A stretch of 64,000 nt of DNA from a virus. The position numbers and the translations under genes were made by a program. Location: the IMG/VR virus record IMGVR_UViG_3300042731_004843, positions 44,146 through 108,145 of that record; one strand, given 5' to 3'. Position 1 is the first letter of the stretch, and each line of letters begins with the position of its first letter. The notes below the pieces were generated by a model that worked only from the letters and a program-made list of their open reading frames with translations, made no database searches and was not told the DNA's origin. This document shows positions 13,364 through 27,881 of this stretch, one piece after another.

Positions 13364-15385
13364 TTGTCCGGCGCTAGTACGCAATCTGCGTCCAGGTTCT
13401 CCAGTCGTGGTCGTTCTGGTGGAGCGCAGGACTACGGACTCCAGTACCCCAGCCCCTTCTTCGACATCGGGCAGACCTATCTCCCGGCCACCGTCAAGCA
13501 GATGTTCAGGTGGTGTAGGTACTATTACTTGGTCAACCCGCTGATCAACGCGGTGGTGTCCAAGATGGCGGAGTACCCCATCACCGACGTGCTGTTTGAC
13601 ACAGAGCGGACAGAGCTGAAGGACAGGTGGACAGGCTTCCTGCTGGACCATCTGCGGTACCGGGCGTTCCAGGTAGAGGTGGGGCTGGACTACTACACCT
13701 ACGGTAACGCGCTTGTCTCGATCTTCTATCCGTTCTTGAAGTTGTTGGAGTGCCGCTCATGCGGCAACAAGCAGTGGGCTAAGGACGCAGAGTACAGGTT
13801 CCAGAACTATCAGTTCTACATGGTGTGCCCCAAGTGTGGGAACCATGGTCCGGCTCGAGCTTACGACCGGTACATCAAGGCGTCTAAGGGCATCAGGCTG
13901 CTTAGATGGAACCCGGAAGACGTAGACATACGCTACAACGACATCACGGGGGAGTACGAGTACTACTACTCTATCCCGACCCAGCTCCGCAACGACATCA
14001 TCATCGGCAAGAAGTCCACGGTAGAGACCGTTCCCCAGCTCTTCATAGACGCTCTGCGCCTGAAGAAGTCTGTGGTCTTCTCCCGCGACAACATCTACCA
14101 CTTCAAGCGTCCAACTTTGGCGGGCAAGGACAGGGGGTGGGGTACCCCCATGATCCTCCCGGTTCTGAAGGACACGTACTACCTTCAGATCATGCGGAAG
14201 GCCCAGGAAGCCATCGCCCTCGAGCACATAGTGCCTCTGAGGGTGATCTTCCCACAAGCCGGTTCAGCTACATCTGATCCTTTCACGTCCGTGAATCTGC
14301 AGGACTGGAGAGATCAGGTAGCCGGTGAGATCAGACGCTGGAGAGCGGACAACAACTACATCCCAATTATGCCCCTGCCTCTAGGTCACCAGACCATCGG
14401 CGGCGACGGGCGTGCGCTCCTGCTGTCGCAAGAGATACGGGTCTGGTCCGAGCAGATCGTGGCCGGTATGGGCATCCCTGTCGAGCTAGTGTTCGGAGGG
14501 TTGAGCTACTCTGGTAGCAACGTCTCCCTGCGCATGCTCGAGAACACCTTCCTGGGCTATCTCCAGGATCACCATTCGATGCTTAAGTGGATCATCAAGA
14601 GCACATCTGCGTATCTTGGTTGGTCCCCCGTCCGGTCCAGGTTCAAGCCGTTCAAGATGGCCGACGACCTGCAAAGAAAGGCGTATCTCTTCCAGCTCAA
14701 TCAGGCCGGCAAGCTGTCGGACGAGTCCCTTTTGGCGGACGCTGACTACGATTCCGCCAAGGAGGACTTGATCATGGAGCGCGAGAGCACCCGTAGGGCG
14801 AGTGCTCATAAGAAGCGTGTCCTACAGGACGCGGACATGCAGGGCGAGGCACAGATGGTCCAGATGAAGTGGCAGTCCAAGATGCAGGCGCAGCAGATGA
14901 AGACGGAAGCTGCTATGCAGAATGAGATAGCCAAGGACCAGGCAGCCTTCCAGGGTGAGCAGCAGAAAGACCTGATGGGCGCGCAGATGGCCATGCAGCA
15001 GGGAGGGCAGCCAGCGGAAACGGCACCAGAGATGCGGCCATCGCCAAGACGCCCAGAACTGATAGAGCCGCCGGAGCAGATCAAGTCGCCACTAACTGCT
15101 AGGTCTATGCAACCGATTCCTGCTGGGGCGACAGGAGAGTCCTTGCAGGGCAAGTCCAACATAGACCTCCTGCTTTTGGGTCGTAGGCTGGCGGACCAGC
15201 TGAACACACTGCAGCCAGTACAGAAGCAGCAAGCACTGTCCGAGCTCAGAGTCATGCAACCAGAGCTGCATGATGTCGTTTTGGGGCTAATGGTATCAGG
15301 GGGAGCTAGAGCCTCTGCCGCAGCGGCCCGACCTCTGCCTGAACAGAAGCCGGCCCGCCGCGGACCAGAAGCGCAACTAGTCTAG
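13364..15385 (+). CDS. portal protein (Zn-ribbon insertion, Q/P-rich tail)
   Basis: NPLINAVVSKMAEYPIT, DYYTYGNA, IYHFK...GWGTP, IVAGMGIP.ELV.GG.SYS; size and position. Confidence 0.8.
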   Translation: MSGASTQSASRFSSRGRSGGAQDYGLQYPSPFFDIGQTYLPATVKQMFRWCRYYYLVNPLINAVVSKMAEYPITDVLFDTERTELKDRWTGFLLDHLRYRAFQVEVGLDYYTYGNALVSIFYPFLKLLECRSCGNKQWAKDAEYRFQNYQFYMVCPKCGNHGPARAYDRYIKASKGIRLLRWNPEDVDIRYNDITGEYEYYYSIPTQLRNDIIIGKKSTVETVPQLFIDALRLKKSVVFSRDNIYHFKRPTLAGKDRGWGTPMILPVLKDTYYLQIMRKAQEAIALEHIVPLRVIFPQAGSATSDPFTSVNLQDWRDQVAGEIRRWRADNNYIPIMPLPLGHQTIGGDGRALLLSQEIRVWSEQIVAGMGIPVELVFGGLSYSGSNVSLRMLENTFLGYLQDHHSMLKWIIKSTSAYLGWSPVRSRFKPFKMADDLQRKAYLFQLNQAGKLSDESLLADADYDSAKEDLIMERESTRRASAHKKRVLQDADMQGEAQMVQMKWQSKMQAQQMKTEAAMQNEIAKDQAAFQGEQQKDLMGAQMAMQQGGQPAETAPEMRPSPRRPELIEPPEQIKSPLTARSMQPIPAGATGESLQGKSNIDLLLLGRRLADQLNTLQPVQKQQALSELRVMQPELHDVVLGLMVSGGARASAAAARPLPEQKPARRGPEAQLV

Positions 15386-15816
15386 CGCGCCAACCGTAGA
15401 CGCATTTGGTTGCGGTGTTGTGCCTCTCCTTCCTCCCGCTCTCTTGCCAGAGCTTTGATTTGTGCGTCTTTGAAACGTCGGTACTGGGTGTTGTGCTGGA
15501 TGTGCTTCCAGTATTCTGCCTCGGGAGTCCCCGCCTCATGCCCGCCCGCCAAAAGACGTAGCCTCAGCTCTTCTACCGCCCTTCGCGGGTACCAGACCTC
15601 ATGGTCACCCGTTTTTGCTCGGGCTCTGCTTCTGGGACCATCGGGGTTGATGTCCAGACGCTCGTGGACTGAACCACGCTGAGTTGACTTGAGGAACAGG
15701 TACTCATTGATCACGTCGTTGGGTTCATGGTAGCAGAGCCGGTCTAGGTCTTCCCGGCTAGAGATGCCCAGCTCCCGCATCCTCCGCGTCGGGTACCAAC
15801 CTGACCCGCTTCTCAT
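15382..15816 (-). CDS. hypothetical protein
   Basis: AGGAGG SD. Confidence 0.7.
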   Translation of the reverse strand: MRSGSGWYPTRRMRELGISSREDLDRLCYHEPNDVINEYLFLKSTQRGSVHERLDINPDGPRSRARAKTGDHEVWYPRRAVEELRLRLLAGGHEAGTPEAEYWKHIQHNTQYRRFKDAQIKALAREREEGEAQHRNQMRLRLAR

Positions 15817-15825
15817 ACCATCCTC

Positions 15826-16305
15826 CTATCTGGCGATACCTAGCATTTCCCTGCCCGCGTCGTAGTTGCCGTCACCGAAATGGAACGACACGCAGTCGGC
15901 GCAGAGCAGACCCAGGTTCGCCTGATCGTCATATGGATCGAAGATCCACGTCTCGAAGTCCACCTTCCCTATTTGGAACTGGAAGGCGTAGGGGTGGACA
16001 TGGAAGTCTTCCGGACATAGTCCGCACTCCCACCGACCCCCATTGGGTTTCCACACATCACGTCTGTTCCCCACCTGCGTTAGAAAACAATGCAGGTGGA
16101 AGAACTCTATGACAGCTTCTTCACGAGTGATGTGGTTGTCGTTTTTCCAGTCTGGTAGGAAGTAGCTGTGCCCCGGGTCCTTCTTCATCGGGTACAGCCG
16201 GCCGGAGATAGCCGCTACCAGCTCATAGTCGCATCCAAATTCCTCCAGGCAGAACCCGCACTTCTGTGCGGGGTTCACCTGGAATTGCGAAGGGATAACG
16301 TCCAT
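15826..16305 (-). CDS. Cys-rich hypothetical protein (duplicated CxxC...HxxC/CxxC units)
   Basis: CGFC...HLHC, CGLC...CADC. Confidence 0.7.
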   Translation of the reverse strand: MDVIPSQFQVNPAQKCGFCLEEFGCDYELVAAISGRLYPMKKDPGHSYFLPDWKNDNHITREEAVIEFFHLHCFLTQVGNRRDVWKPNGGRWECGLCPEDFHVHPYAFQFQIGKVDFETWIFDPYDDQANLGLLCADCVSFHFGDGNYDAGREMLGIAR

Positions 16306-16557: not shown

Positions 16558-16696
16558 AGACTTCCTCCTGTTTGGGGCTGGAACAGCCTCTGCTTTTACT
16601 CTTCACCCTCCTTATACCCATCTGCCGCAGTATATTTCGTTGCCAGTTCTCCAGTTGATCTGGTAGGTTGTACGAACACATATACGGAGCGGCCTC

Positions 16697-19600
16697 ATGG
16701 CGCGTCTTTCCCCGGAAGAGAGCTTCGAAATTCTCAAGGACCGGGTCGCAGAGACAGTCGGCGGGCTCTTCCCGATCGTAGGGAAGAAGCACACACTGGA
16801 ACTGGGACAGGTCGACGTCAACGACAGGCTTCATATAGACGACATCCGTTCACAGAAGGAGGCCAAGCTGGGTAGCCGGACTTGGGCCGTCCCTGTGGAA
16901 GCTAAGGTCGTCTTACGAGACAACGACACAGGCAAGAGGGTGGATGAGCAAAAACTCCGCCTCATGAGCTTGCCCAAGCACACCAGGCGCTACTCCCACA
17001 TCGTCGATGGCCAGGAGTACCAGATCGACAACCAGTGGCGGCTGAAGTCCGGGGTCTACGCTCGAGTGAAGGACAATGGGGAGCTGAAGTCAGAGTTCAA
17101 CCTGGCCAAGGGCAGGGGCTTCAGCTTGGGGTTCGACCCCAAGAACCGCCAGTTCCACATGTCGTACGGCACCTCCAACATACCGCTGGCCCCGCTGCTG
17201 CAAGAGATGGGTGTGCCACAAGCCAAGATACAGGAGCAATGGGGCTCTGCTATTGCCCAAGAGAACGATAAAGACGTAGAGCAGGCAGTACTGAAGTTCT
17301 ACAAAGCCTCTACGGGTAAGAAGGCGGACGACTACGAGCAGGCGCGGCAGTACATGAAGGACACGCTGACCGCGACAGAGCTGCGCCCAGACACTACGAA
17401 GGTCACGCTGGGCAAAGGGTACAAGTCGGTGACTGGGGACGCTTTGATGGATGCGTCTACCAAGCTGCTGCGCATATCCCAGGGTAAAGCAGAGCCAGAT
17501 CCCAGAGACTCCTTGATGTTCAAGGACCTGCACAGCACGGAGGACTTTTTCGCTGAGCGGATCCAAAAGAGTGGTCGGGACATCACCCGGCGCATACAAA
17601 ACACTCTAGATCGGAAGAAGCGTGTCAGCGACATCGTCGGCCCGGACGTCTTCAATCGCCCCATCAGGACTATGTACCGCACTTCCCTGGCGAATGTCCC
17701 AGATCAAACCAACCCCTTGGAGATGATGTCTGGGCAGATGAAGACCACCATCACAGGCGAGGGAGGCATCAAGAGTTCGCACGCCATCACTGAGGACGCC
17801 AAGCTAGTCGACCCATCACACCTCGGGTATTTGGATCCGATACACACGCCGGAGGGGGCGTCCACAGGCGTGTCCCTGCGCATGCCTATCGGCGTGAAGA
17901 AGAAGGGCCACGATGTCGCCGTCAAGATGTTCAACGTCAAGACAGGCAGACTGGAGGACGTCAATCCAGAGAAGGCCATGAACTCCACTGTCGTCCTGCC
18001 TGACCAAGTTAGGTGGCAGGACGGCAAGCCTACGCCGGCCGGCAAAACGATCAAGATGAGTGGGCCAGGTAATGAGATCGTCGAAGGGCCCATGAAGCAG
18101 GCGGACTACATCATGCGGGACCCCATACAGATGTTCTCCATGGCATCTAATCTGGTCCCTTTCGTGGCAGCAGACCACCCGAACCGCAGCACCATGGCGG
18201 GGAGGCACATGGAGCAGGCAATACCGCTACAACGGCGCAAGGCCCCCTTGGTGCAGAGTGTAGCGGGCACCAAGACTTTTGAGCGGGTGATGGGTGATTA
18301 CGCCGGCCACACCACGCGCTTTGCTGGGGAGGTCGTGGGAATCAAGAAAGACGCCGTCGTCATCAAAGGAGACGATGGCAAGAATCATGAGGTTCAGCTA
18401 TACGATCACTTCCCACTCAACGACGATAAAGGCTTCCTCCACTCGACTCCTACGGTGAAGGTTGGGGACAAGGTTAAAAAGGGCCAGCCGATAGCGGACA
18501 CCAACTTCACAGATGGTGGGGCCCTAGCTCTAGGCACCAACCTCAAAGTCGGATACATGCCCTACAAAGGGTACAACTTTGAGGACGGCATCGTGATCAG
18601 TGAAGGTGCCGCAAAGGAGTTGTCCAGCGAGCACCTTTACCGCAAGACCCTACAACGAGACCGGCAGCACGTGCTGGACAAGAAGAAGTACCAGGCGTAC
18701 GCGCCAGATGCCGTAACTCGAGAGCAATCAGACAAGCTCGATGATGAAGGGGTCATCAAGCCAGGGCAGGTAGTGTCTCCGGGTGATACCCTGATCGCCG
18801 CACTACGCGAGAAGAAGGACACCAAGGAAGATCGCGAGCTCGCACGTATCCACAAGTCTCTAGTCCGGCCGTACACTGATGCCAGCGTGAAGTGGGAGGC
18901 TGACCACCCGGGGGTGGTGCAGGAGGTGGTAAAGAAGGGCAAGAAGTTGGCTGTCCACGTCAAGACTTTGGAGGCCGCTGAAATCGGGGACAAGATCGCC
19001 GGCCGTCACGGCAACAAAGGCATCATCACGAGCATTTTGCCGGATGACGAGATGCCACAGACCAAAGACGGCAAACCACTACAGATTCTGATGAACCCCA
19101 CTGGCGTGCCCGGCCGTACTAACCTCGGCCAAGTGCTGGAGACGGCTGTCGGCAAGATAGCTGAGAAGACTGGTAAGCCGTACACGGTCAAGAACTTCCA
19201 GCCTAATGAAGATCTACACGCCAAAGTTACCGCAGATCTGAAGGCGCACGGGCTACCTACTGACGGAAAAGAAGAAGTCGTGGACCCAAAGACCGGTAGG
19301 GTTTTGGGCAGGATCCTGACGGGGCCACAACATGTGGTCAAGTTGAAGCACCAAGTAGAGAAAAAGATGATCGCCAGGGCTGGTGGACCTGGCTATGCGT
19401 ATGACAGGAACCTGGTACCCAAGGGAGGGGGCCCGCACGGGGCGCAGGCTTTGGGCACTCTCGGCCTCTACTCCATGCTGGCGCATGGCGCTAAGGCCAA
19501 CTTGAGGGAGATGCAGACTCTCAAGAGTGACGCAGGCCAGAGTGATGAATTTTGGGCCGCCCTACAGGCTGGGGAAGCGCTGCCGGCGCCACGTCCCACG

Positions 19601-22600
19601 TTCGCGTACAAGAAATTCACCAGCTATCTCAACGCGCTAGGGGTCAACGTTAAGAAGGACGGCAACAATCTCTCACTCATCCCGTTCACCGATAAGCAGG
19701 TGGAGGAGATGAGTAATGGGCAGATCAAAGACGCAGCCAGGATGGTGCGGGCCAAGGACCTACGCCCAGAGACTGGAGGGCTGTTCGATCCCAAGACCAC
19801 TGGCGGTGTTGACGGTACGAAGTGGAGCCACATTCGTCTGGCCGAGGCTATGCCCAACCCCTTGTTCGAGCGGGCGATACAGAGCCTCACCGGACTAGAT
19901 CAGAAGAAGTACACGGATCTGGTTACTGGTAGGGCGGCTTTGGATAAGAGCGGCAACCTGACCTCCAACTTGGACGCCGGCGTAACCGGTGGTGCTGCAA
20001 TAGATAGTCTGCTCAAGAAGGTCGACACCAAGACGGCACTGGAACAGGCGCAGAAGGAGCTGGACAACCCCAACCTGAAGGGCAACCGCCTCGACCAAGC
20101 CAACAAGAAGGTCAAGTTCCTGCGGGCGCTAGATTCCGCAGGACTGAATGCCCGGGACGCGTACATGATGCAGAACGTACCGGTCCTGCCGCCGTCCATG
20201 CGCCCCATCTCCCAGCTACCTAATGGCGATCTCAATTTTGACGACGTCAATGGCCTCTACAAGGGGCTGCACCTAACGTCGTCCCAATTAAAGAAGCAGC
20301 AGTCTAGTAAGTTGCTGCCGCCAGAAGAGATGCAAGAGACCAGGGAGGAACTCTATGATGGGCTACGTGCATTAACTGGTTTGGGCGGCAATCCAAGGCA
20401 GGAGTTCCGCGGCATCCTGGACGTGATCGGAGGCAAAAGACTGGAGACGTCTGGTGGCCGGGCAACTGGTAGAAAGGTGGGCTCACCAAAGGAGGGCTTC
20501 TTTCAGAAGAAGTTGGTGCAGAGAAAGCAGGACCTCTCTATGCGGTCCACCATCATCCCCGAGCCGGCACTAGCTTTGGACGAGGTGGGGCTGCCCAGAC
20601 GTGCGGCGCTTGAGCTCTACAAGCCATTTGTGGTTAGGGAGCTGCGCAACATAACTGGCGCTTCCCCATTGGAAGCGCAGAAGAAGATCGGAGAGGGCGG
20701 ACAGTTGGTAAACAGGGCGCTTGAGCGTGTGGTAGAAAGCCGCCCCGTCTTGTTGAAGAGAGACCCGGCACTGCACAAGTACAGTGTGCAGGCCTTCAAG
20801 CCGCGCATTGTGGGCGGCAAGGCTGTCCAGATCCACCCGCTGGTGACCTCCGGCTACAACGCAGACTTTGACGGGGACACGATGGCCGCCTTCGTGCCCG
20901 TGAGTAATGAGGCCGTTGAGGAAGCCAAGAAGATGTACCCCTCGAGGAACCTTTTCAGCCCCTCGACTGGCAGCTTGATGTACTCCCCTACGCTGGAGAC
21001 CCAGCTTGGTCTGTACGGCATCACGCAGCAAACCGGAAAGAAGACAGGCAAGCAGTTCAAGGACATCAAAGAGGTCCACTCCGCTTTGAACAAGGGCCAG
21101 GTAGGCCTCAATGATACTGTCCGAGTGGGTGGCCTGACGTCCACGACGGGTAAGTTTCTGGTGGGGGAGGCGCTACCAGAAGATATGCGCAAGGATTTCC
21201 TCAAGAGGAAAGACCCCCTGGACAAGGCCGGGCAAAAAGAGCTGCTTACAACACTGGCCAAGCAGCACCGCAATGACTACGGGGAGGTGGTCAACAAGCT
21301 AAAGGACCTGGGCAATCGCTGGTCGACGGATACCGCGTTCTCTATTGGTCTGGACGACATCAAGCCGGAGACACGGACGAGAGATAAGATCTTGAAGGCC
21401 GCGGAGAAGCGAGTGGCTGCGGCAGGCGGCAAACCAGAAGCGGCCATACGGGAATTCGACAAAGCCACGCAGGAGATGGCCAAAGAGTTCGCCAAGATGC
21501 CAGAGGGCCGTAGCGCGCTGCTCACTATGAACCGTTCCGGTATCAAGCCCTACAACGACACTCTTCGGCAGATCAAGATGGCCCCCATGCTGATCGCTAA
21601 CGCCAAAGGAGAGGTCATCCCCACTCCGGTACGCAAGTCCTACGCAGAGGGCCTGGATTTGGCAGACTACTGGACCTCGATGAGTGGGGCACGCAAGGGC
21701 ATCATCCAGAAGGTACAACAGGTCCAAGAGCCTGGGTACTTGTCCAAGCAGGTTATGAATTCTGTGATGAACAACACGATCGCGGACAATGACTGCGGTA
21801 CGGACAAGGGTATTGCGCTGCCGACAGACGAGAAGGATATCCTAGACAGGTACACGGCTGCGCCAGTACGGGCTGGAAAGAAGACCATACCCGCAGGTAC
21901 GTTGGTCACTCCAGAAGTACGGAACACGTTGCGTAACAACAGGGTAGGGCGGGTGGTGGTGCGCTCTCCTTTGCGCTGCCAGCACGGCCCAGGTCTCTGT
22001 AAGAAGTGTTACGGCCTTACTGAAGACGGAAGAGAGCCGGAAGTAGGCTTGAATGTGGGCGTGTTGGCCGGACAGGCACTAGGTGAGCGCGCCACCCAGC
22101 TGGCTATGAAATCCTTCCACACGGGGGGCACTGTAGCGACCAAGGAGGGCCTGGTAGATGAGTTTCAGCGGGTAAAGAACTTGCTGCTCTTCCCCAAGAC
22201 TCTGCCGGGATCTGCTACTCTGTCTACCGTGAACGGCAAGGTAGACAAGATAGAGAAGGACCCTGCCGGTGGACACAACGTGTTCATCTCTGGGGAGAGG
22301 CACTACGTTCCCCAGAAGCGGGGCGTGCCCATGATGGGCGGAAAGACATTGCGCAGAGGGGCCCAGGTTAAGAAGGGTGCCGCGATCTCCGGGGGGGTGG
22401 TGAACCCGCACGATATGCTGCCGCTGACTGGTGTGGAGCCCGTACAGGGCTACCTATCCAATGAGCTGCACAACATCTACGGGCCTCATGGTATCCGCCG
22501 CAGGAATACCGAAGTGGTGGTCAAGTCGCTAACGAATCTCACCAAGGTGGATGATCCCGGAGACCACCGTGAGTTCATCCGTGGCGACTTTGCGCCACAA

Positions 22601-22855
22601 ACACTGGTCGCGAATATGAACAGGCGAGACAAAGGCAAACGGCCTGTACGCCACACACCAATCCTCAAGGGCGTGGACATGCTACCGCTGGACATGCAAG
22701 AGGATTGGATTGCTAGAATGAATCACCAACGACTGTCTCAGACAGTCGTGGCGGCAGCGCAGCAGGGGTGGACCAGCAAGCTGCATGGTAAGCACCCTAT
22801 TCCTCCGGTTGTTTATGGTGCAGAGCTGGGCAAAGCAAAACCTGGAGAATACTAA
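16697..22855 (+). CDS. phage DNA-directed RNA polymerase, fused beta + beta' single polypeptide (2052 aa)
   Basis: beta motifs HTPEG, GYNFEDG, GDKIAGRHGNKG, MNPTGVPGRTNLGQ; beta' motifs GGLFD, VPVLPPSMRP, NADFDGD (20858-20878), bridge helix GARKG, trigger loop GERATQLAMKSFHTGG. Confidence 0.96.
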   Translation: MARLSPEESFEILKDRVAETVGGLFPIVGKKHTLELGQVDVNDRLHIDDIRSQKEAKLGSRTWAVPVEAKVVLRDNDTGKRVDEQKLRLMSLPKHTRRYSHIVDGQEYQIDNQWRLKSGVYARVKDNGELKSEFNLAKGRGFSLGFDPKNRQFHMSYGTSNIPLAPLLQEMGVPQAKIQEQWGSAIAQENDKDVEQAVLKFYKASTGKKADDYEQARQYMKDTLTATELRPDTTKVTLGKGYKSVTGDALMDASTKLLRISQGKAEPDPRDSLMFKDLHSTEDFFAERIQKSGRDITRRIQNTLDRKKRVSDIVGPDVFNRPIRTMYRTSLANVPDQTNPLEMMSGQMKTTITGEGGIKSSHAITEDAKLVDPSHLGYLDPIHTPEGASTGVSLRMPIGVKKKGHDVAVKMFNVKTGRLEDVNPEKAMNSTVVLPDQVRWQDGKPTPAGKTIKMSGPGNEIVEGPMKQADYIMRDPIQMFSMASNLVPFVAADHPNRSTMAGRHMEQAIPLQRRKAPLVQSVAGTKTFERVMGDYAGHTTRFAGEVVGIKKDAVVIKGDDGKNHEVQLYDHFPLNDDKGFLHSTPTVKVGDKVKKGQPIADTNFTDGGALALGTNLKVGYMPYKGYNFEDGIVISEGAAKELSSEHLYRKTLQRDRQHVLDKKKYQAYAPDAVTREQSDKLDDEGVIKPGQVVSPGDTLIAALREKKDTKEDRELARIHKSLVRPYTDASVKWEADHPGVVQEVVKKGKKLAVHVKTLEAAEIGDKIAGRHGNKGIITSILPDDEMPQTKDGKPLQILMNPTGVPGRTNLGQVLETAVGKIAEKTGKPYTVKNFQPNEDLHAKVTADLKAHGLPTDGKEEVVDPKTGRVLGRILTGPQHVVKLKHQVEKKMIARAGGPGYAYDRNLVPKGGGPHGAQALGTLGLYSMLAHGAKANLREMQTLKSDAGQSDEFWAALQAGEALPAPRPTFAYKKFTSYLNALGVNVKKDGNNLSLIPFTDKQVEEMSNGQIKDAARMVRAKDLRPETGGLFDPKTTGGVDGTKWSHIRLAEAMPNPLFERAIQSLTGLDQKKYTDLVTGRAALDKSGNLTSNLDAGVTGGAAIDSLLKKVDTKTALEQAQKELDNPNLKGNRLDQANKKVKFLRALDSAGLNARDAYMMQNVPVLPPSMRPISQLPNGDLNFDDVNGLYKGLHLTSSQLKKQQSSKLLPPEEMQETREELYDGLRALTGLGGNPRQEFRGILDVIGGKRLETSGGRATGRKVGSPKEGFFQKKLVQRKQDLSMRSTIIPEPALALDEVGLPRRAALELYKPFVVRELRNITGASPLEAQKKIGEGGQLVNRALERVVESRPVLLKRDPALHKYSVQAFKPRIVGGKAVQIHPLVTSGYNADFDGDTMAAFVPVSNEAVEEAKKMYPSRNLFSPSTGSLMYSPTLETQLGLYGITQQTGKKTGKQFKDIKEVHSALNKGQVGLNDTVRVGGLTSTTGKFLVGEALPEDMRKDFLKRKDPLDKAGQKELLTTLAKQHRNDYGEVVNKLKDLGNRWSTDTAFSIGLDDIKPETRTRDKILKAAEKRVAAAGGKPEAAIREFDKATQEMAKEFAKMPEGRSALLTMNRSGIKPYNDTLRQIKMAPMLIANAKGEVIPTPVRKSYAEGLDLADYWTSMSGARKGIIQKVQQVQEPGYLSKQVMNSVMNNTIADNDCGTDKGIALPTDEKDILDRYTAAPVRAGKKTIPAGTLVTPEVRNTLRNNRVGRVVVRSPLRCQHGPGLCKKCYGLTEDGREPEVGLNVGVLAGQALGERATQLAMKSFHTGGTVATKEGLVDEFQRVKNLLLFPKTLPGSATLSTVNGKVDKIEKDPAGGHNVFISGERHYVPQKRGVPMMGGKTLRRGAQVKKGAAISGGVVNPHDMLPLTGVEPVQGYLSNELHNIYGPHGIRRRNTEVVVKSLTNLTKVDDPGDHREFIRGDFAPQTLVANMNRRDKGKRPVRHTPILKGVDMLPLDMQEDWIARMNHQRLSQTVVAAAQQGWTSKLHGKHPIPPVVYGAELGKAKPGEY

Positions 22856-23169
22856 TGAACGAGATCCAAATGGCCAGCATGTCAGACGAGATAGGTAAGA
22901 TCAAGCAAGCCGGTATCGGTAGCGTGCTCAAAGGCGTGGGCAAGTTCTTCAAGGGTGGTCTGGAGGGGGCAGGACAGCTGGCTAGTAAGTCTGGGCGGTC
23001 AGGGTTGTGGCAACAGACTAAGAGCCTCCCTGGGCAGATGCGAGAGTCCTTCCGACAAGGTGGCCTGGCCGGAGCAGGAAGAACGCTGGCGGGGTCTACT
23101 CCCGCTCAGATAGCTGGCGTGGCTGCGGTCCCGTTCGCTGCTGGCAGATTGTCGAAGCGAGACAACTAG
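22855..23169 (+). CDS. small cationic amphipathic protein with acidic leader ending KQA
   Basis: MNEIQMASMSDEIGKIKQA|GIGSVLKGVGKFFKGG... Confidence 0.75.
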   Translation: MNEIQMASMSDEIGKIKQAGIGSVLKGVGKFFKGGLEGAGQLASKSGRSGLWQQTKSLPGQMRESFRQGGLAGAGRTLAGSTPAQIAGVAAVPFAAGRLSKRDN

Positions 23170-24435
23170 ATGTCCTTCCCCAATTCACCCTCATCCTCCA
23201 GGATGAGGCCCGCCTGGATCGAGACCGGGACGGTGGCCAATGTAAACGCCAAAAACATGACGTTGGACTGGGTATCCCAGTACACCGGCAAGCAGATCCC
23301 TGACGTGCAGTGGATGTCCTCGTACGTACACTACAGCAACGGCGAGGGGTTCACGTGCGTGCCGGAGGTTGGCGCCCTGTGTGCTCTGTGCTTTCCGTCT
23401 GATGACGATCCGCCCTTCGTACTTGGGTTTCTCACAGGGCCCGAGCTGATTGGGGCAGATGCCGGAGACCTACAGGAGAAGGTAGAGGATCCCGGCGTAG
23501 AGAATGAAGAAGACCTGCCGCAGTCGCAGACCACCCAGGCGGGAGGGACTACTAGCCCCACCGCTAACCCCAGCGATGCTAGCTTCCGTGGTGGCAGGCC
23601 AATACTAAACCCAGGGGACATGTATTGGCAGGGACGCAACGAGAACTTCGTGGTGCTTCGGCGCGGGGGCGTGCTGCAGCTGGGCAGCACTCAGATCTGC
23701 CAGCGGGTCTACATCCCAGTCGGTAATATCATCAGGGATTTCTGCGAGAACTATGAGCTGAACACGGCAGCAGGCACCCTGAGCTGGCAGGTCAAGCGCA
23801 ACGAGAGCAATCCCAGCGGCAACGCGCCCTCCGAGTTCGAGCTCATCTCCAGGGAGAACGCCCAGGATAAGTACGCTTCTGTGAAGGTAATGATTGGTAC
23901 GCCCCGTGACGACAAGGCTAAAAAGAAGCTGTCTAGCGGCAACAACGCGTTCATAGAACTTGTCCTGGCCCCTCAGAAGATCGACCCGAATACGGGAGAG
24001 GTGTCTGGCAAAGGTGTGTTCGTGATCAGAGTAGACAAAGAGGGCAACTCGTTTGTCTACCAGGCGGGGGATCGAGACGAGGAGGTAGGCAACGACACAG
24101 TCACGGTCAGGGGCGCGCAAAATGTAGAAGTCGCGGGGGCGCGCACGATCAAGTCCCAGAGTGAGAGTAAAGAACTGCAGGGCAATCAGGACGTTAAGGG
24201 CGCAGCTAGCACAGAGACTTGGAGTGGAACCAAGACGATAGCAGCAGCACAACTGCTGCTTGGAGGTACTGGGGCTTCCGAGCCGGGCGTGCTTGGTCTA
24301 AAATTGGCGGCATGGTTGTCATCGCACACACATACGGTCACCGTGCCACCAGGGACAGCGGTAGTATCGACGCCGCCCATGACTGCACAGGCTTTGCCCG
24401 ATGCGATTCTCTCGACCAAAGTAAAGCTGTTATGA
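23170..24435 (+). CDS. baseplate central spike (gpV/gp5/VgrG-like)
   Basis: OB-fold G...VPEVG.....F...PFVLG, beta-repeat region, C-terminal HTH metal-binding tip. Confidence 0.75.
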   Translation: MSFPNSPSSSRMRPAWIETGTVANVNAKNMTLDWVSQYTGKQIPDVQWMSSYVHYSNGEGFTCVPEVGALCALCFPSDDDPPFVLGFLTGPELIGADAGDLQEKVEDPGVENEEDLPQSQTTQAGGTTSPTANPSDASFRGGRPILNPGDMYWQGRNENFVVLRRGGVLQLGSTQICQRVYIPVGNIIRDFCENYELNTAAGTLSWQVKRNESNPSGNAPSEFELISRENAQDKYASVKVMIGTPRDDKAKKKLSSGNNAFIELVLAPQKIDPNTGEVSGKGVFVIRVDKEGNSFVYQAGDRDEEVGNDTVTVRGAQNVEVAGARTIKSQSESKELQGNQDVKGAASTETWSGTKTIAAAQLLLGGTGASEPGVLGLKLAAWLSSHTHTVTVPPGTAVVSTPPMTAQALPDAILSTKVKLL

Positions 24436-24447
24436 TAGGAGAGGACC

Positions 24448-26460
24448 ATGGATCTCTTCCTCGACGATAAAAAACTGACGTTTGAAAAGCTCGGTATGGA
24501 AGCCAGGATGTCGGAGGAACCGAACGACTGGCCGGAGCAGATCTTAGACCAGCTCTTCAAGCAGGTACCTTTTGCCAGTGACTACAACCCCAAGGTAGTA
24601 CTGGATGAGATCGACCCAGACCGGCGCTACGCGTTGGGGAAGGTGGAGCTCCACAACCAGATGGCCATCAATCCTCGGGACGACTCCACCCCGATGGAAC
24701 TGCAGGGCAAGCAGAAGGTCCTCATACCGATCGTCATCAAAGACGGCAGGCTTGCTCCGCTAGACCTGCTAATGCACAGCGGTTTTGTGGAGCCGCTTAC
24801 TGAAGACCGCCTACGTGCGGCCCTCTTCCGTCCGTCACTCTTCGAGGCGATACGTAAGCGGCCAGGCGACATGAGCCTTATCGAGCAGCTCTACCCACCC
24901 AATCGGCAGTACGGCGGCGCCAGGGGCCCCCTAGTGGCTGACGTAGGTGCCGGGGGTATGGCTCGTACAGCATCGGCCAAGCCGGAGTTTCTTCTCGACG
25001 CCATCATGCCTACCGTCAAGAAGGCGCACGTCCAGAAGGTGGCCCAGCAGATCGGCAACGATCCAGTGCTGAGATCCGCACTCTTCTCCAACGACGCCGT
25101 CATCCCCTTCATGTCCAAGCTGGCAGAGGTGGAGGCAGTAGAGAAGGACCCGGACGACTACCTGCGTAAGATCGCAGGCAGCATCCCGCCCAACGTCATC
25201 CAGGTGCGAAAGATCCCTGGTGGTTTCAGGATCAAGACAGCCCAGAGTGAGGCGCTGGTACCCAGCTCCGATGATGTGGACAGGCCGACGGCTGTCGGCT
25301 CTCTCGGTGGGGACCTGGTGTCTGCCGTGGAGCGTGACGGTACGACCACCATCAGTACCATGTCCGGGGCCAAAGATACGCTCGAGGACCTGGTCATCAC
25401 CACAGTCACCGAGTTCGGTCTCTACAAGGTCAAGCGTTTGGGGGACAACAAGGAGATGGTGGGTTGGGTATTCCCGAAAGTTATGGCCTTCACTGGAGAG
25501 GTCCTGCCGATCGCTGTGTTCTCCAACGGTAGCGCGTCCGCCATGCAAGAGAATATAGCTGGCGTGCCGGTAGGCAGGCAGCCGGATGTACTGGACTCGC
25601 CTCCCCAGGGCTTGGGAGTCTTCTACTACGCCACCTCGAGCGGAGCCATGGCGTTGGTGCCTGTGATGGTCAAGGGCGAGGCAGAGACCCCGGAGGGGGT
25701 CTCGTACGTCTGTGAGACCATCATGGGGGAGCGCTGTGGAGTGATCAAGGTCCCGGGCCTGAAGAGCATACAAGTCATAGAGGAGGGCAGGTACGGTATC
25801 CCGGAGGACTGTGGGTTCATGCCCATGGACAACCCCACAGATCTAGTCTCCAGCCCTGACGAGTTTATCAAGCAGGCTGAAGCGCTCATGGTGGCCGGCG
25901 ATGGGGTACGTATCATCACTGACGGCAGCTGCTACACCTTCGATGGCCCAGCCATCGATAAGCTGGCCGGTGTGCTGCCCACCCAGTTTTTGGACAGGGA
26001 TGACGCGGTATTCCTGGGCGCCGTGCTTGGTCAAGAGCCAGAGAAGCTGGCGCACAAACTGGACAGCATCCGCAGCAAGGGCGGGCAAGAGCTGTGGATC
26101 CAGGCGGTTCCAGCCACCACCATGCGGGAGAAGTACGCGGAAGCCAGAGCTAGTGCCAAGGAGAGGTTGGACAATCTCCCCGACATGAGGACTGACCTGC
26201 TTAAGGAGGCGGCTCCGATAGAGGACCCAGCTGCTGTGGACAAGATCCTTTCTGTGGGATTCCTCAATCCAGAGAACGTGTCGATCTTCGCTAGCTACGA
26301 GCCGGAGATAGAGGCTACGATCAAGAAGCTGTCGGAGCTGCTCATGGCCTCGAGGATGGGGCTGGGGTCTGTGGAGGAGGGGGCTCTCCAGAAAGCAATC
26401 GTTCACCTCGATAAGGTAGTGGCTGGACTGAAGACGATCGGTTCTATGCCGCAGGCATAA
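24448..26460 (+). CDS. putative virion structural/inner-head protein
   Basis: GGAGAGG SD; numerous KxA sites. Confidence 0.7.
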   Translation: MDLFLDDKKLTFEKLGMEARMSEEPNDWPEQILDQLFKQVPFASDYNPKVVLDEIDPDRRYALGKVELHNQMAINPRDDSTPMELQGKQKVLIPIVIKDGRLAPLDLLMHSGFVEPLTEDRLRAALFRPSLFEAIRKRPGDMSLIEQLYPPNRQYGGARGPLVADVGAGGMARTASAKPEFLLDAIMPTVKKAHVQKVAQQIGNDPVLRSALFSNDAVIPFMSKLAEVEAVEKDPDDYLRKIAGSIPPNVIQVRKIPGGFRIKTAQSEALVPSSDDVDRPTAVGSLGGDLVSAVERDGTTTISTMSGAKDTLEDLVITTVTEFGLYKVKRLGDNKEMVGWVFPKVMAFTGEVLPIAVFSNGSASAMQENIAGVPVGRQPDVLDSPPQGLGVFYYATSSGAMALVPVMVKGEAETPEGVSYVCETIMGERCGVIKVPGLKSIQVIEEGRYGIPEDCGFMPMDNPTDLVSSPDEFIKQAEALMVAGDGVRIITDGSCYTFDGPAIDKLAGVLPTQFLDRDDAVFLGAVLGQEPEKLAHKLDSIRSKGGQELWIQAVPATTMREKYAEARASAKERLDNLPDMRTDLLKEAAPIEDPAAVDKILSVGFLNPENVSIFASYEPEIEATIKKLSELLMASRMGLGSVEEGALQKAIVHLDKVVAGLKTIGSMPQA

Positions 26461-26461
26461 G

Positions 26462-27358
26462 ATGGCGATCCACCGCAGTCCTTGTGAGTACTTCATCAAG
26501 TTTCTGCTGTCCCAGCAGGAGCATGAGCCCAACGCTATCCTACAAATCCTGGAGGACTTTAATCTCGGGACAGGGGGACTGGGGATCAGCTACATAAAGC
26601 GCCTGCAGCGTGATATGGAGCCGGTGCCTGAGCCTTGGGACCTGACCGACAAGGACGGACCAACCAGAGAGTACCTCAAGAAGCACAAGATCCATGACCT
26701 GTACTTCCCGCACGCCCATGTACAAGAGGCGTACGGCATCCTCTCCAGCGCGCAGCTGCGGGAGGACATAGAGCAGCTGCTGCTGTCCCCGCTACGTATC
26801 GAAGAAGTGGTGAAGCGGATTAACCGCCACTACAACATGACGATGACGATAGAGGGGGCGGAAGCGTACCGGCACTACTTCTGGAACAAGAGCCTACTCT
26901 CGATGCAGGAGTGGATGGAGGTGCTTGAAGGCACGCCCATGGGATCGGAGAGCATCACCATGCTCAGGGTGAGTCCCGATGTGGCGCAGTCTCTGGTGCC
27001 TTGGATAGCCGGTATGGCCGGGCCACCGAAGACACTCAATACGGGTACGGTGGCTCGGCGCATGAGGGACATTGCGTTCCTAAAGGTGTTGGAAATCGAG
27101 AGGCAGCCAGCTACACTGGCCCACTCGAAGATGATGAAGAACTACATGGACGTGGTCCGTGGCGCAGAGGCCGAGATGCGCCAGAGCGAGGTTGCTCTGA
27201 AGGACGTACTCAAGGCGTTCGAGAAGTTCCGCTTGCGTAAAGATGACAACTCCGTGCCCTCAATCGAGGAAGTGGCGGGCCCGAATTTCAGCCATTCCGG
27301 GGAGGGGACTGGGGCTGCTAATACTGCGGACGATATAATGGAGGACGACGATGGCTGA
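26462..27358 (+). CDS. hypothetical protein (possible terminase small subunit)
   Basis: Helical protein near terminase; function from position only. Confidence 0.6.
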   Translation: MAIHRSPCEYFIKFLLSQQEHEPNAILQILEDFNLGTGGLGISYIKRLQRDMEPVPEPWDLTDKDGPTREYLKKHKIHDLYFPHAHVQEAYGILSSAQLREDIEQLLLSPLRIEEVVKRINRHYNMTMTIEGAEAYRHYFWNKSLLSMQEWMEVLEGTPMGSESITMLRVSPDVAQSLVPWIAGMAGPPKTLNTGTVARRMRDIAFLKVLEIERQPATLAHSKMMKNYMDVVRGAEAEMRQSEVALKDVLKAFEKFRLRKDDNSVPSIEEVAGPNFSHSGEGTGAANTADDIMEDDDG

Positions 27359-27881
27359 GACTAAAGAGGTAGTAGTACGTGGCGGAATCAAGACCGCGCA
27401 GACCAAGAGACCTTTCTGGGTTTCTGACGAAGAGAAAAAGGGCCTATCTACTACCCCGCCGGACAATCTGGATGTGGCGTCCGCTATTCCCGCTCTGACA
27501 TGTGTAGAGGCCGGCTCTCTTGTGGGGGCCTACACCCGCAAGGACGGGTTGGTGATCTACCACGTCTACAAAAAGGATCGGAAAGAGATCTACGACGCTG
27601 CTCACGAGGCGCTGGCGAAGACTCGGGATCCGGCCGCTCAACAAGAGATATCCCGGAGGGCTAACCAAGATCTGGAAGAACATCCTTGGTGGCCGGACAC
27701 CGTAGTAAAACTCCACGAGGTCTTCTCCGAGCACTTCAAGCACCACCCCAACAAGATCACCTACTTCCCAGAGGTAGATAGCTGGTCTGTGATCTTGCCC
27801 GAACCCACTATGCCAGCAGCCTTGGCGCCACAATATCTAAAGGCTGCTCTCAGCAAACTCGCCCTATCGGTTGATGGCTAA
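27351..27881 (+). CDS. hypothetical protein
   Basis: GGAGG SD, overlap with upstream gene. Confidence 0.7.
   Translation: MAETKEVVVRGGIKTAQTKRPFWVSDEEKKGLSTTPPDNLDVASAIPALTCVEAGSLVGAYTRKDGLVIYHVYKKDRKEIYDAAHEALAKTRDPAAQQEISRRANQDLEEHPWWPDTVVKLHEVFSEHFKHHPNKITYFPEVDSWSVILPEPTMPAALAPQYLKAALSKLALSVDG

What the first reader, a model, noticed from the sequence alone, without database searches (positions are those of the whole stretch)
16697..22855. Minimal single-chain beta-beta' RNA polymerase embedded among virion genes
2052 aa versus roughly 2700 aa for bacterial beta+beta'. The fusion junction is near 19600-19720. The beta' N-terminal Zn-binding domain is deleted (GGLFDPKTTGG runs directly into WSHIRL), while the C-terminal Zn site (DCGT..RSPLRC..LCKKCYG) is kept. 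No alpha, omega or sigma gene is seen in the window. Fused RNAPs are known from metagenomic tailed phages but are little characterised. Position between portal and spike suggests it may be virion-packaged.
Basis: partly seen in the sequence, partly recalled or inferred. Interest (0 to 1): 0.7.

Follow-up and report, generated by a model that had tools for sequence, protein, structure and literature searches.

The report
Single-chain phage RNA polymerase with own sigma
An uncultured large wetland phage encodes both big subunits of a bacterial-type RNA polymerase as one trimmed 2,052-residue protein between its portal and tail-spike genes. It also has its own sigma factor, and it belongs to a very large, barely studied phage lineage that probably carries the enzyme inside the virus particle.

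Summary

- **Architecture:** residues 1-989 are a trimmed beta and 990-2052 a trimmed beta', joined without a linker.
- **Kept:** catalytic NADFDGD, bridge helix, trigger loop and the second Zn site (four Cys).
- **Lost or changed:** the beta' N-terminal Zn-binding domain is deleted and the rifampicin pocket is substituted.
- **Neighbours:** portal (13364-15385), central tail spike (23170-24435) and large terminase (28098-29927). This order recurs in most of 80 related viral contigs.
- **Other subunits:** no alpha or omega was found in this 108-kb contig or in two complete cultured relatives. A sigma70-family gene lies about 40 kb upstream of the window on the same contig. A complex model docks it on the enzyme's clamp helices (0.67 against 0.01 for the best control).
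- **Virion packaging:** in Salmonella phage Arash (about 31-33% identical), published particle mass spectrometry found polymerase, this sigma and an SNF2 helicase at densities like portal and capsid proteins. Packaging here is inferred from that.
- **Distribution:** the fused form is very common in metagenomes. I found no paper describing it.

This scan has already reported the same kind of gene on several other genomes, with the same conclusions.

Verdict: real, and a new variant of a known kind.

The parts
13364..15385 (+). Portal protein (673 aa)
   Evidence: 32% identical to Arash gp204 portal, E 2e-84. 8 of 17 family members hit phrog_16240 'portal protein', best E 1.4e-7. Found upstream of the polymerase gene in 65 of 80 related loci.
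15382..16305 (-). Small minus-strand island (144-aa and 159-aa ORFs), function unknown
   Evidence: ORF list. No Pfam hit for the 159-aa ORF. Conserved only in the closest relatives.
16611..16618 (-). GGTATAAG element, candidate promoter of the minus-strand island
   Evidence: The block TCCTTATAnC is conserved upstream of the polymerase gene in 5 relatives. Function inferred.
16640..16669 (+). Candidate -35 / extended -10 promoter of the polymerase operon (TTGCCA-N18-TAGGTT, preceded by TGG)
   Evidence: 28 nt before the ATG. The blocks GTTGC and TCTGGTAGnTT are conserved in relatives while the flanks diverge. Which polymerase uses it is unknown.
16697..22855 (+). Single-chain beta-beta' RNA polymerase, 2,052 aa (P0001)
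   Evidence: GC3 is 0.71, like other large genes of the contig at 0.69-0.73. It is the only RNAP barrel set in the contig.
16697..19663 (+). Beta module (aa 1-989)
   Evidence: Lacks E. coli beta 220-357 and 945-1049. The flap tip segment is aligned and present.
17681..17758 (+). Rifampicin-pocket equivalent, substituted
   Evidence: E. coli Q513N, F514V, H526G, R529K, S531T, L533T; D516 kept. G at the H526 position is the family consensus. Resistance is inferred, not tested.
19664..22855 (+). Beta' module (aa 990-2052)
   Evidence: Matches C. difficile beta' 142-1130, E 5e-107. No SI3 insertion.
19802..19822 (+). Site of the deleted beta' Zn-binding domain (G1036 to K1042)
   Evidence: E. coli beta' 64-88 is absent in all family members and both cultured relatives aligned over this region.
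20231..20350 (+). Clamp helices (aa 1179-1218), predicted docking site of the phage sigma
   Evidence: Alignment to E. coli beta' ~265-310. These residues form the interface in the complex model.
20858..20878 (+). Catalytic NADFDGD (aa 1388-1394)
   Evidence: D1390, D1392, G1393 and D1394 are invariant in 22 family members.
21794..22009 (+). Second Zn site (C1700, C1761, C1768, C1771)
   Evidence: Aligned to E. coli C814, C888, C895, C898. Nearly invariant in the family.
22855..23169 (+). Small Gly/Ala-rich ORF (104 aa), start overlaps the polymerase stop (ATGA)
   Evidence: No homologues found among relatives' ORFs.
23170..24435 (+). Central tail spike protein (421 aa)
   Evidence: Profile hits the T4 gp5 beta-helix, E 2.7e-7. 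Model (pLDDT 72) matches VgrG, P2 gpV, phi92 and phi812 spikes. Downstream of the polymerase in 58 of 80 loci.
24448..27881 (+). Three conserved genes of unknown function (670, 298 and 176 aa) in the same tightly packed operon
   Evidence: No Pfam or PHROG hit. Conserved in 65, 46 and 11 of 80 loci. The 298-aa protein weakly resembles Arash gp219, E 9e-5.
28098..29927 (+). Large terminase subunit
   Evidence: phrog_675 E 2e-58; PF05876. Homologue of Arash gp1.

Best explanation
**What it is.** This is the phage's own catalytically competent, bacterial-type RNA polymerase core, made as one chain. Beta is fused head-to-tail to beta' at the point where their ends meet in cellular enzymes. It is trimmed of lineage-specific insertions and of the beta' Zn-binding domain.

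**How it most likely works (inferred).**
- It needs no alpha or omega encoded by the phage.
- A phage-encoded sigma70-family factor (256 aa, contig position 3453-4223) gives it promoter specificity by docking on the clamp helices.
- It is expressed together with the portal, spike and terminase genes.
- By analogy with phage Arash, it is packed into the capsid with that sigma and an SNF2-type ATPase. It is then injected and starts phage transcription independently of the rifampicin-sensitive host enzyme.
- Only one polymerase set is found, so the same core probably serves the whole infection. A second sigma may be involved, as in Arash.

**Shown:** architecture, conserved active site, deletions, gene context, presence and fold of the sigma, family size.

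**Inferred:** activity, sigma use, alpha independence, packaging and injection, rifampicin resistance.
For: **Architecture and motifs:**

**One polymerase set only:** found in this contig and in the complete genomes of Arash and Vibrio phage D69.

**No alpha or omega:** none in the three records, while the control genomes all ring.

**Sigma:**
- Pfam Sigma70_r3 scores above its cut-off.
- The family profile matches RpoD over regions 2.3 to 4.2, E 1e-10.
- The model has pLDDT 79, and all 50 listed Foldseek hits are sigma factors.
- It is a full-length homologue of Arash gp10, E 7e-24.
- Sigma homologues sit on contigs of the same length as those carrying fused polymerases: 127264, 109973, 178277 and 113240 bp.
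- The complex model of sigma with aa 1000-1430 scores 0.67 against 0.01 for the best of 3 controls. That mark was reached by 58 of 80 solved complexes and 2 of 110 mismatched pairs. Runs agree in at least 47% of contacts and the partner's pLDDT is at least 69. The interface is clamp helices 1179-1218 with sigma residues 41-121. A pass for this textbook pair may reflect likeness to solved holoenzymes.

**Virion context:** portal, spike and terminase neighbours, with synteny conserved down to 33% polymerase identity.

**Packaging in a relative:** in the PMC10585845 table, Gp206 has the most spectra (3516). My normalisation uses lengths.

| Arash protein | Spectra per residue | Unique peptides per 100 aa |
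|---|---|---|
| Gp206 (beta + beta' N-terminal part) | 2.3 | 8.4 |
| Gp216 (beta' C-terminal part) | 2.0 | 6.6 |
| Sigma Gp10 | 2.0 | 10.3 |
| SNF2 helicase Gp217 | 2.4 | 8.1 |
| Portal | 1.5 | 5.5 |
| Ribonucleotide reductase | 0.9 | 1.4 |

The second Arash sigma, Gp196, is absent from the table. This contig also has the SNF2 homologue (38% identical, E 4e-79).
Against: - No experiment exists on any fully fused member.
- Packaging rests on one proteome in which 116 of 272 proteins were detected, metabolic enzymes included. The authors themselves allow carry-over of abundant proteins.
- The operon is preceded by a -35/-10 type promoter that a host sigma70 holoenzyme could also read.
- The universally conserved beta motif GGQRFGEME is degenerate here, reading HGAQALGTL, so activity cannot be taken for granted.
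- Absence of alpha rests on Pfam models. A very divergent platform protein among the unknown neighbours, or use of host alpha, is not excluded.
- The contig is only about 58% complete.
Confidence: 0.6

Rival explanations
1. It is a non-virion polymerase only. The enzyme is made late or mid-infection and transcribes phage genes in the cell, but it is not packaged. Early genes are read by the host polymerase. The Arash particle signal is carry-over of a very abundant large protein.
For: - The Arash proteome lists 116 of 272 proteins, including ribonucleotide reductases and RNA ligases, and its authors raise this possibility.
- A sigma70-like promoter precedes the operon.
Against: - Peptide density of polymerase, sigma Gp10 and helicase in Arash equals or exceeds that of the portal and is 5-7 times that of ribonucleotide reductase (my calculation).
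- The other Arash sigma (Gp196) is not listed.
- The gene sits between the portal and spike genes in most of 80 loci.
Confidence: 0.25
2. It is a hybrid enzyme. The fused chain still needs the host's alpha dimer (and perhaps omega) as an assembly platform, as the naturally fused beta-beta' of Helicobacter does.
For: - No phage alpha or omega was found.
- Cellular rpoBC fusions keep alpha (established knowledge, not tested here).
- The enzyme is much closer to bacterial beta and beta' than phiKZ-type enzymes are.
Against: - An injected enzyme that must first find host alpha would be slow to act.
- Alpha-less phage multisubunit polymerases exist: phiKZ and AR9 (PMC7598289).
- Covalent fusion removes one reason for a platform.
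- None of this is decisive.
Confidence: 0.2
3. The phage sigma redirects the host core polymerase, as T4 gp55 or SPO1 gp28 do. The fused enzyme would then use another specificity factor, or none.
For: - Many phages without their own polymerase encode sigmas (PMC7824862).
- The complex model cannot distinguish the phage core from a host core.
Against: - Sigma and fused polymerase co-occur across the lineage.
- Both are found in Arash particles at similar density.
- The clamp helices and flap tip are retained.
- The predicted interface is the canonical one.
Confidence: 0.12
4. It is not a phage gene, or not a working gene: bacterial contamination, a chimeric assembly, or an inactive relic used structurally.
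For: - The GGQRFGEME motif is degenerate and the Zn-binding domain is lost.
Against: - The ORF is intact in the 10 distant loci translated and in the 32 fused sequences used for the tree.
- The catalytic residues are invariant.
- The lineage is separated from three bacterial references by a long branch with 100% local support.
- Composition matches the rest of the contig.
- The gene is flanked by portal and terminase on 80 independent viral contigs.
Confidence: 0.02

Closest known systems
RNA polymerase of Salmonella phage Arash (Gp206 + Gp216, with sigma Gp10; PMC10585845) and of Vibrio phages D69, D148 and D181
   Same: - Same lineage: 31-33% identity over 97-98% of the length in the Vibrio phages, and 33% over residues 5-1478 in Arash.
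- Same direct beta-to-beta' junction and the same Zn-binding-domain deletion.
- The gene follows the portal gene.
- Same gp10-type sigma.
- Same SNF2 helicase partner in Arash.
- One polymerase set per genome, with no alpha or omega.
   Different: - The cultured phages split beta' after about residue 1478 into a second gene. In Arash ten genes lie in between. In D148 and D181 a homing endonuclease lies under the match.
- Here, and in the other fused loci checked, the whole enzyme is one chain.
- The fusion is not commented on in the Arash paper, where Gp206 is called the beta subunit.
mReC, metagenomic Caudovirales with a deep-branching beta and beta' (Weinheimer and Aylward 2020, PMC7481178)
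   Same: Uncultured large tailed phages from IMG/VR that encode bacterial-like, size-reduced beta and beta' recognisable by cellular profiles.
   Different: - Every mReC entry I saw in their table lists beta and beta' as different proteins: 999-1487 aa and 903-1303 aa.
- No ~2,050-aa entry was found in the held supplement text.
- Their capsid and terminase families are PF07068 and PF03237. Here the terminase is PF05876 and the capsid protein has no Pfam hit.
Virion and non-virion multisubunit polymerases of phiKZ/AR9-type jumbo phages (PMC7598289, PMC7824862)
   Same: - Phage-encoded two-barrel enzymes without alpha or omega.
- One set is packaged and injected.
- An SNF2-type helicase co-varies with the polymerase genes.
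   Different: - Those enzymes are split into four or five polypeptides and come in two paralogous sets.
- They are very divergent from cellular beta and beta' and have no sigma.
- This enzyme is one chain in one set, is easily aligned to bacterial enzymes, and comes with a sigma70-family factor.
Cellular rpoB-rpoC fusions (Helicobacter, Wolbachia; established knowledge, not tested here)
   Same: Beta C-terminus joined to beta' N-terminus in one polypeptide.
   Different: Cellular fusions are full-length, keep the Zn-binding domain and work with alpha2, omega and host sigmas. This enzyme is about 700 aa shorter than E. coli beta plus beta', lacks that domain and has no phage alpha or omega.
Single-chain two-barrel phage polymerases (crAss-like gp66, YonO, P23-45 tape-measure polymerase; PMC7481178 introduction, PMC10770324)
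   Same: Both catalytic barrels lie in one polypeptide. Some of these enzymes are packaged and injected.
   Different: Those enzymes lack recognisable beta and beta' domains and belong to the RdRP-like branch. P0001 hits six cellular Rpb1/Rpb2 Pfam domains with E values down to 3e-65.

Membership tests
Cellular-type multisubunit RNA polymerase large subunits (beta / beta') | Beta barrel domain (Rpb2_6) and beta' barrel domain with NADFDGD | tested here: met
   PF00562 E 3e-65; PF00623 E 8e-28. NADFDGD at 1388-1394, invariant in the family.
Cellular-type multisubunit RNA polymerase large subunits (beta / beta') | Bridge helix and trigger loop | tested here: met
   Both align to E. coli beta' 770-810 and 915-940. 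There is no SI3 insertion.
Cellular-type multisubunit RNA polymerase large subunits (beta / beta') | Beta' N-terminal Zn-binding domain (four Cys) | tested here: not met
   E. coli 64-88 is deleted, and no Cys remains in the region.
Cellular-type multisubunit RNA polymerase large subunits (beta / beta') | Second beta' Zn site | tested here: met
   C1700, C1761, C1768 and C1771.
Cellular-type multisubunit RNA polymerase large subunits (beta / beta') | Conserved beta motif GGQRFGEME | tested here: not met
   It reads HGAQALGTL in P0001 and is similarly degenerate in relatives.
Cellular-type multisubunit RNA polymerase large subunits (beta / beta') | Alpha dimer and omega as partners | tested here: inconclusive
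   No PF01000, PF01193 or PF01192 hit in this contig or in the Arash and D69 genomes. Use of host subunits or a divergent platform protein cannot be excluded.
Arash-like phage polymerase lineage | Direct beta-to-beta' junction with the Zn-binding domain deleted | tested here: met
   Shared by P0001, distant fused members, Arash and D69.
Arash-like phage polymerase lineage | Gene follows the portal gene; gp10-type sigma and SNF2 helicase elsewhere in the genome | tested here: met
Arash-like phage polymerase lineage | Beta' split into a second gene | tested here: not met
   It is one continuous ORF here. Ten distant loci also carry a single ORF of 1,992-2,261 aa. In the tree, the split isolates are one of several deep branches, and the branching order is unresolved.
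Arash-like phage polymerase lineage | Presence in purified particles | not testable with these tools
   Known only for Arash (PMC10585845).
mReC clade (PMC7481178) | Separate beta and beta' genes; T4-type capsid (PF07068); PF03237 terminase | tested here: not met
   Here it is a fused gene, the terminase is PF05876 and the capsid protein has no PF07068 hit.
phiKZ/AR9-type phage polymerases | Four or five polypeptides, two paralogous sets, no sigma | tested here: not met
   One chain, one set, and a sigma present.
Sigma70 family (for the 256-aa partner protein) | Regions 2, 3 and 4 in order; docking on the beta' clamp helices | tested here: met
   - Sigma70_r3 scores 34 bits against a cut-off of 25. 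Region 4 scores 19.6 bits, below its cut-off.
- The profile aligns to RpoD regions 2.3-4.2, E 1e-10.
- Fold hits are all sigma factors.
- The region 2 Pfam model was not hit.
- Docking is modelled only.

The most novel reading that the evidence does not exclude
The lineage carries a self-sufficient two-protein bacterial-type transcription machine: one alpha- and omega-free core chain plus one dedicated sigma. It is packed in the capsid with an SNF2 ATPase and injected with the DNA, and it serves as the phage's only polymerase. Loss of the Zn-binding domain, together with the remodelled beta C-terminal motif next to the fusion point, would make it deaf to host termination and antitermination factors and to rifampicin.
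Probability: 0.35. Interest if true: 0.8.

Novelty: new variant of a known kind. Interest (0 to 1): 0.6.

Why it matters
If the chain plus its sigma is active alone, it would be the simplest known sigma-dependent bacterial-type polymerase. That has several consequences:

- It offers a natural test of whether the alpha platform, omega and the beta' Zn-binding domain are dispensable.
- It is a compact, orthogonal and probably rifampicin-insensitive transcription system for synthetic biology.
- It suggests that a very large, widespread group of ~180-kb phages brings its own holoenzyme into the cell. That would change how their early infection, host take-over and sensitivity to host defences should be modelled.
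- Cultured relatives (Arash on Salmonella, D69-type phages on Vibrio) make the questions directly testable.

Tried and rejected
- **Nucleotide search:** megablast of the gene against the phage collection gave no match.
- **Neighbour annotation:** Pfam and PHROGs on ten neighbouring proteins named only the terminase.
- **Portal:** the profile against solved structures gave no portal hit. Portal identity rests on PHROG hits of family members and on Arash.
- **ESM Atlas:** no usable hit for the 670-aa neighbour.
- **GGNATAAG:** not enriched as a motif overall. Only its positions are suggestive.
- **Tree:** the mixture-model tree did not finish in time. A FastTree tree was used, and the base of the phage clade is unresolved. 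I therefore do not claim whether the split form is derived or ancestral.
- **Second sigma:** tblastn for an Arash Gp196 / D69_0246-type sigma in this contig found nothing at E <= 1. The contig is about 58% complete.
- **Sequencing runs:** no RNA holder is listed. The one run holding most of the gene is a wetland metagenome that may be the source sample.
- **mReC supplement:** sample numbers of related contigs turned up only as reference capsid or terminase rows, not as fused polymerases. One supplement file was cut when stored.
- **Literature:** searches for a description of fused phage beta-beta' found none.
- **Bacterial contamination:** considered and rejected.

Full report
**What is there**

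window:16697-22855(+) is a single open frame of 2,052 codons with a GGAG ribosome site 7 nt before the ATG. Pfam places Rpb2 domains 3 and 6 at residues 335-898. Rpb1 domains 1, 2, 3 and 5 follow at 1135-1957. The best solved relatives are bacterial beta' chains, for example C. difficile at E 5e-107 over residues 1065-2030.

The window is the last 64 kb of a 108,145-bp linear IMG/VR virus record, judged about 58% complete. That implies a genome near 185 kb. The only sequencing run holding most of the gene is a wetland metagenome.

**Anatomy**

- *Junction.* The beta part ends at G989, equivalent to E. coli beta ~1341. The beta' part starts at N990, equivalent to E. coli beta' ~17. There is no linker. 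The junction is therefore at about nt 19664.
- *Missing relative to E. coli.* Beta 220-357 and 945-1049, the beta' SI3 insertion, several shorter segments, and beta' 64-88. The last segment is the N-terminal Zn-binding domain with all four Cys.
- *Kept.* NADFDGD (1388-1394), the bridge helix, a trigger loop without insertion, the four Cys of the second Zn site, the clamp helices and the flap-tip segment. In a 22-member family alignment the catalytic Asp residues are invariant and the four Cys nearly so.
- *Rifampicin pocket.* It carries Q513N, F514V, H526G, R529K, S531T and L533T in E. coli numbering. Single changes at several of these positions give resistance in bacteria (established knowledge), so resistance is a reasonable but untested inference.
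- *GGQRFGEME.* This universally conserved beta motif reads HGAQALGTL. It lies in the beta C-terminal part, next to the fusion point. Together with the loss of the Zn-binding domain, this suggests that the clamp and RNA-exit corner has been remodelled (inference).

**Family**

A word-indexed search found over a hundred full-length homologues at 48-85% identity and about 2,050 aa, on contigs up to 199 kb.

An exhaustive HMMER search used residues 600-1700, which span the junction. Nearly all of its best 150 cluster representatives had fused-type lengths and matched across the junction.

IMG/VR holds at least 568 stretches encoding a relative. Ten of the most distant loci (33-39% identity) each carry a single ORF of 1,992-2,261 aa.

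The closest cultured phages are Vibrio phages D69, D148 and D181 (187 kb) and Salmonella phage Arash (181 kb), at 31-33% identity. In these phages the beta-to-beta' junction is fused in the same way and the Zn-binding domain is deleted in the same way. However, beta' is cut after about residue 1478 into a second gene.

In a FastTree tree, the 34 phage sequences separate from three bacterial references with 100% local support. The split isolates form one of several deep branches, and the order of those branches is unresolved.

About half of the sampled homologues are longer. They carry insertions of at least 120 aa at conserved sites and have intein or homing-endonuclease Pfam domains.

**Context**

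- The 673-aa protein upstream is a portal. It is 32% identical to Arash gp204, and 8 of 17 family members hit a portal PHROG.
- The polymerase gene heads a tightly packed operon whose third gene encodes a central tail spike. Its profile matches the T4 gp5 beta-helix at E 2.7e-7. Its model matches VgrG, gpV and phage baseplate spikes.
- The large terminase follows at 28098, and the capsid gene homologue lies at 38232.
- The order portal, polymerase, spike, 670-aa protein, 298-aa protein, terminase recurs in most of 80 related loci, down to 33% polymerase identity.

**Partners**

Pfam models of alpha (two models) and omega find nothing in this contig or in the complete Arash and D69 genomes. All 14 control genomes ring. 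Each of the three records has only one beta barrel and one beta' barrel, unlike phiKZ-type phages.

Outside the window, at contig position 3453-4223, lies a 256-aa protein with these properties:

- It scores above the Sigma70_r3 cut-off.
- As a family profile it aligns to RpoD regions 2.3 to 4.2 at E 1e-10.
- It folds with pLDDT 79, and the closest solved structures are all sigma factors.
- It is the full-length homologue of Arash Gp10.
- Its relatives sit on contigs of the same length as those carrying fused polymerases.

A complex model of this sigma with residues 1000-1430 scored 0.67 against 0.01 for the best of three controls. That mark was reached by 58 of 80 solved complexes and 2 of 110 mismatched pairs. 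The runs agree in at least 47% of contacts, and the partner's pLDDT is at least 69. The interface is the canonical one, clamp helices 1179-1218 against sigma region 2. Because sigma-core complexes are solved many times over, this pass shows likeness to them. It does not show that this pair binds.

A 1,218-aa SNF2 helicase with an inorganic-pyrophosphatase domain lies at contig position 33437-37093. It is 38% identical to Arash Gp217.

**Packaging**

The Arash paper reports that Gp206 is the most detected protein in purified particles. Gp216, sigma Gp10 and helicase Gp217 are also present. I normalised these counts using protein lengths from the record.

| Arash protein | Spectra per residue | Unique peptides per 100 aa |
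|---|---|---|
| Gp206 (beta + beta' N-terminal part) | 2.3 | 8.4 |
| Gp216 (beta' C-terminal part) | 2.0 | 6.6 |
| Gp10 (sigma) | 2.0 | 10.3 |
| Gp217 (SNF2 helicase) | 2.4 | 8.1 |
| Portal | 1.5 | 5.5 |
| Ribonucleotide reductase | 0.9 | 1.4 |

This looks like a specific, roughly stoichiometric cargo. The caveat is that 116 of 272 proteins were detected, and the authors themselves allow carry-over. No rifampicin or transcription experiment is reported there.

**Promoters**

GGNATAAG is not enriched overall. Allowing G or T at the second base, 5 of its 12 copies on the whole contig lie 31-54 nt upstream of minus-strand gene starts.

Five TTGnnn-N17/18-TAGnnT elements lie 22-32 nt before gene starts, one of them before the polymerase gene.

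Upstream of the polymerase gene, both the TCCTTATAnC block and the GTTGC...TCTGGTAGnTT block are conserved in relatives whose flanks have diverged. Which polymerase reads which class is unknown.

**Literature**

The metagenomic mReC clade (PMC7481178) lists beta and beta' as separate proteins. It uses other capsid and terminase families. Reviews of jumbo-phage polymerases describe split, sigma-less enzymes. I found no paper describing this fused lineage.

This scan has already reported the same architecture on at least five other genomes, and the follow-ups reached the same reading. I reached mine before seeing them, and they are not independent evidence.

**Verdict**

The gene is a member of a very large, cultured-but-unstudied phage lineage. 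The fully single-chain, Zn-domain-less, sigma-equipped form is a new variant of phage-encoded multisubunit-type polymerases. Activity, alpha independence, sigma use and packaging remain inferences, and all can be tested directly in Arash or the Vibrio phages.

Noticed in passing
G000:C1:33437-37093 (+), 7-10.7 kb before the window start (L007:13437-17093): A 1,218-aa protein with an SNF2-type helicase core (aa ~285-671) and an inorganic-pyrophosphatase domain (aa 871-995). [quoted passage not shown] It may be a polymerase-associated ATPase.
   Followed up: partly
Homologues P0005-P0387: About half of the sampled fused polymerases carry one to four insertions of at least 120 aa, with intein or homing-endonuclease Pfam domains. 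The hot spots are NADFDGD (P0001 aa ~1390-1410), the trigger loop (~1810-1820), the beta GDKxxxRHGNKG motif (~770-790), HTPEG (~380-390), ~940, and the former Zn-domain site (~1040).
   Followed up: partly
L001 (Arash) and L002 (Vibrio D69); hits H1 and H2: The cultured relatives split beta' after about residue 1478. In D148 and D181 a homing endonuclease gene lies under the match, which suggests that mobile-element insertion caused the split.
   Followed up: no
window 23170-24435 (+): The central spike protein has an N-terminal OB-fold-like part, a disordered acidic linker (aa 94-134) and a C-terminal SSHTHTV motif. That motif is reminiscent of the metal-binding HxH apex of P2 gpV-type spikes.
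   Followed up: partly
window 24448-26460 (+) and 22855-23169 (+): The 670-aa protein begins ...KKLTFEKLG and the 104-aa protein begins ...MSDEIGKIKQAG. These resemble the '...E(I/L)EKI(A/G)' leaders that other first readers flagged on unrelated proteins of this genome as possible capsid-targeting or cleavage signals. The polymerase itself has no such leader.
   Followed up: no
window 16600-16670: Two candidate promoters sit back to back: GGTATAAG on the minus strand and TTGCCA-N18-TAGGTT on the plus strand, 21 nt apart. Both blocks are conserved in relatives.
   Followed up: partly
window 22793-22852 (C-terminus of P0001): The last residues (...VYGAELGKAKPGEY) are conserved to the final tyrosine across the family; Y2052 is nearly invariant. 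The function is unknown.
   Followed up: no
window 19370-19400 (P0001 aa ~893-920): The universally conserved beta motif GGQRFGEME is replaced by HGAQALGTL, here and in similar form in relatives.
   Followed up: partly
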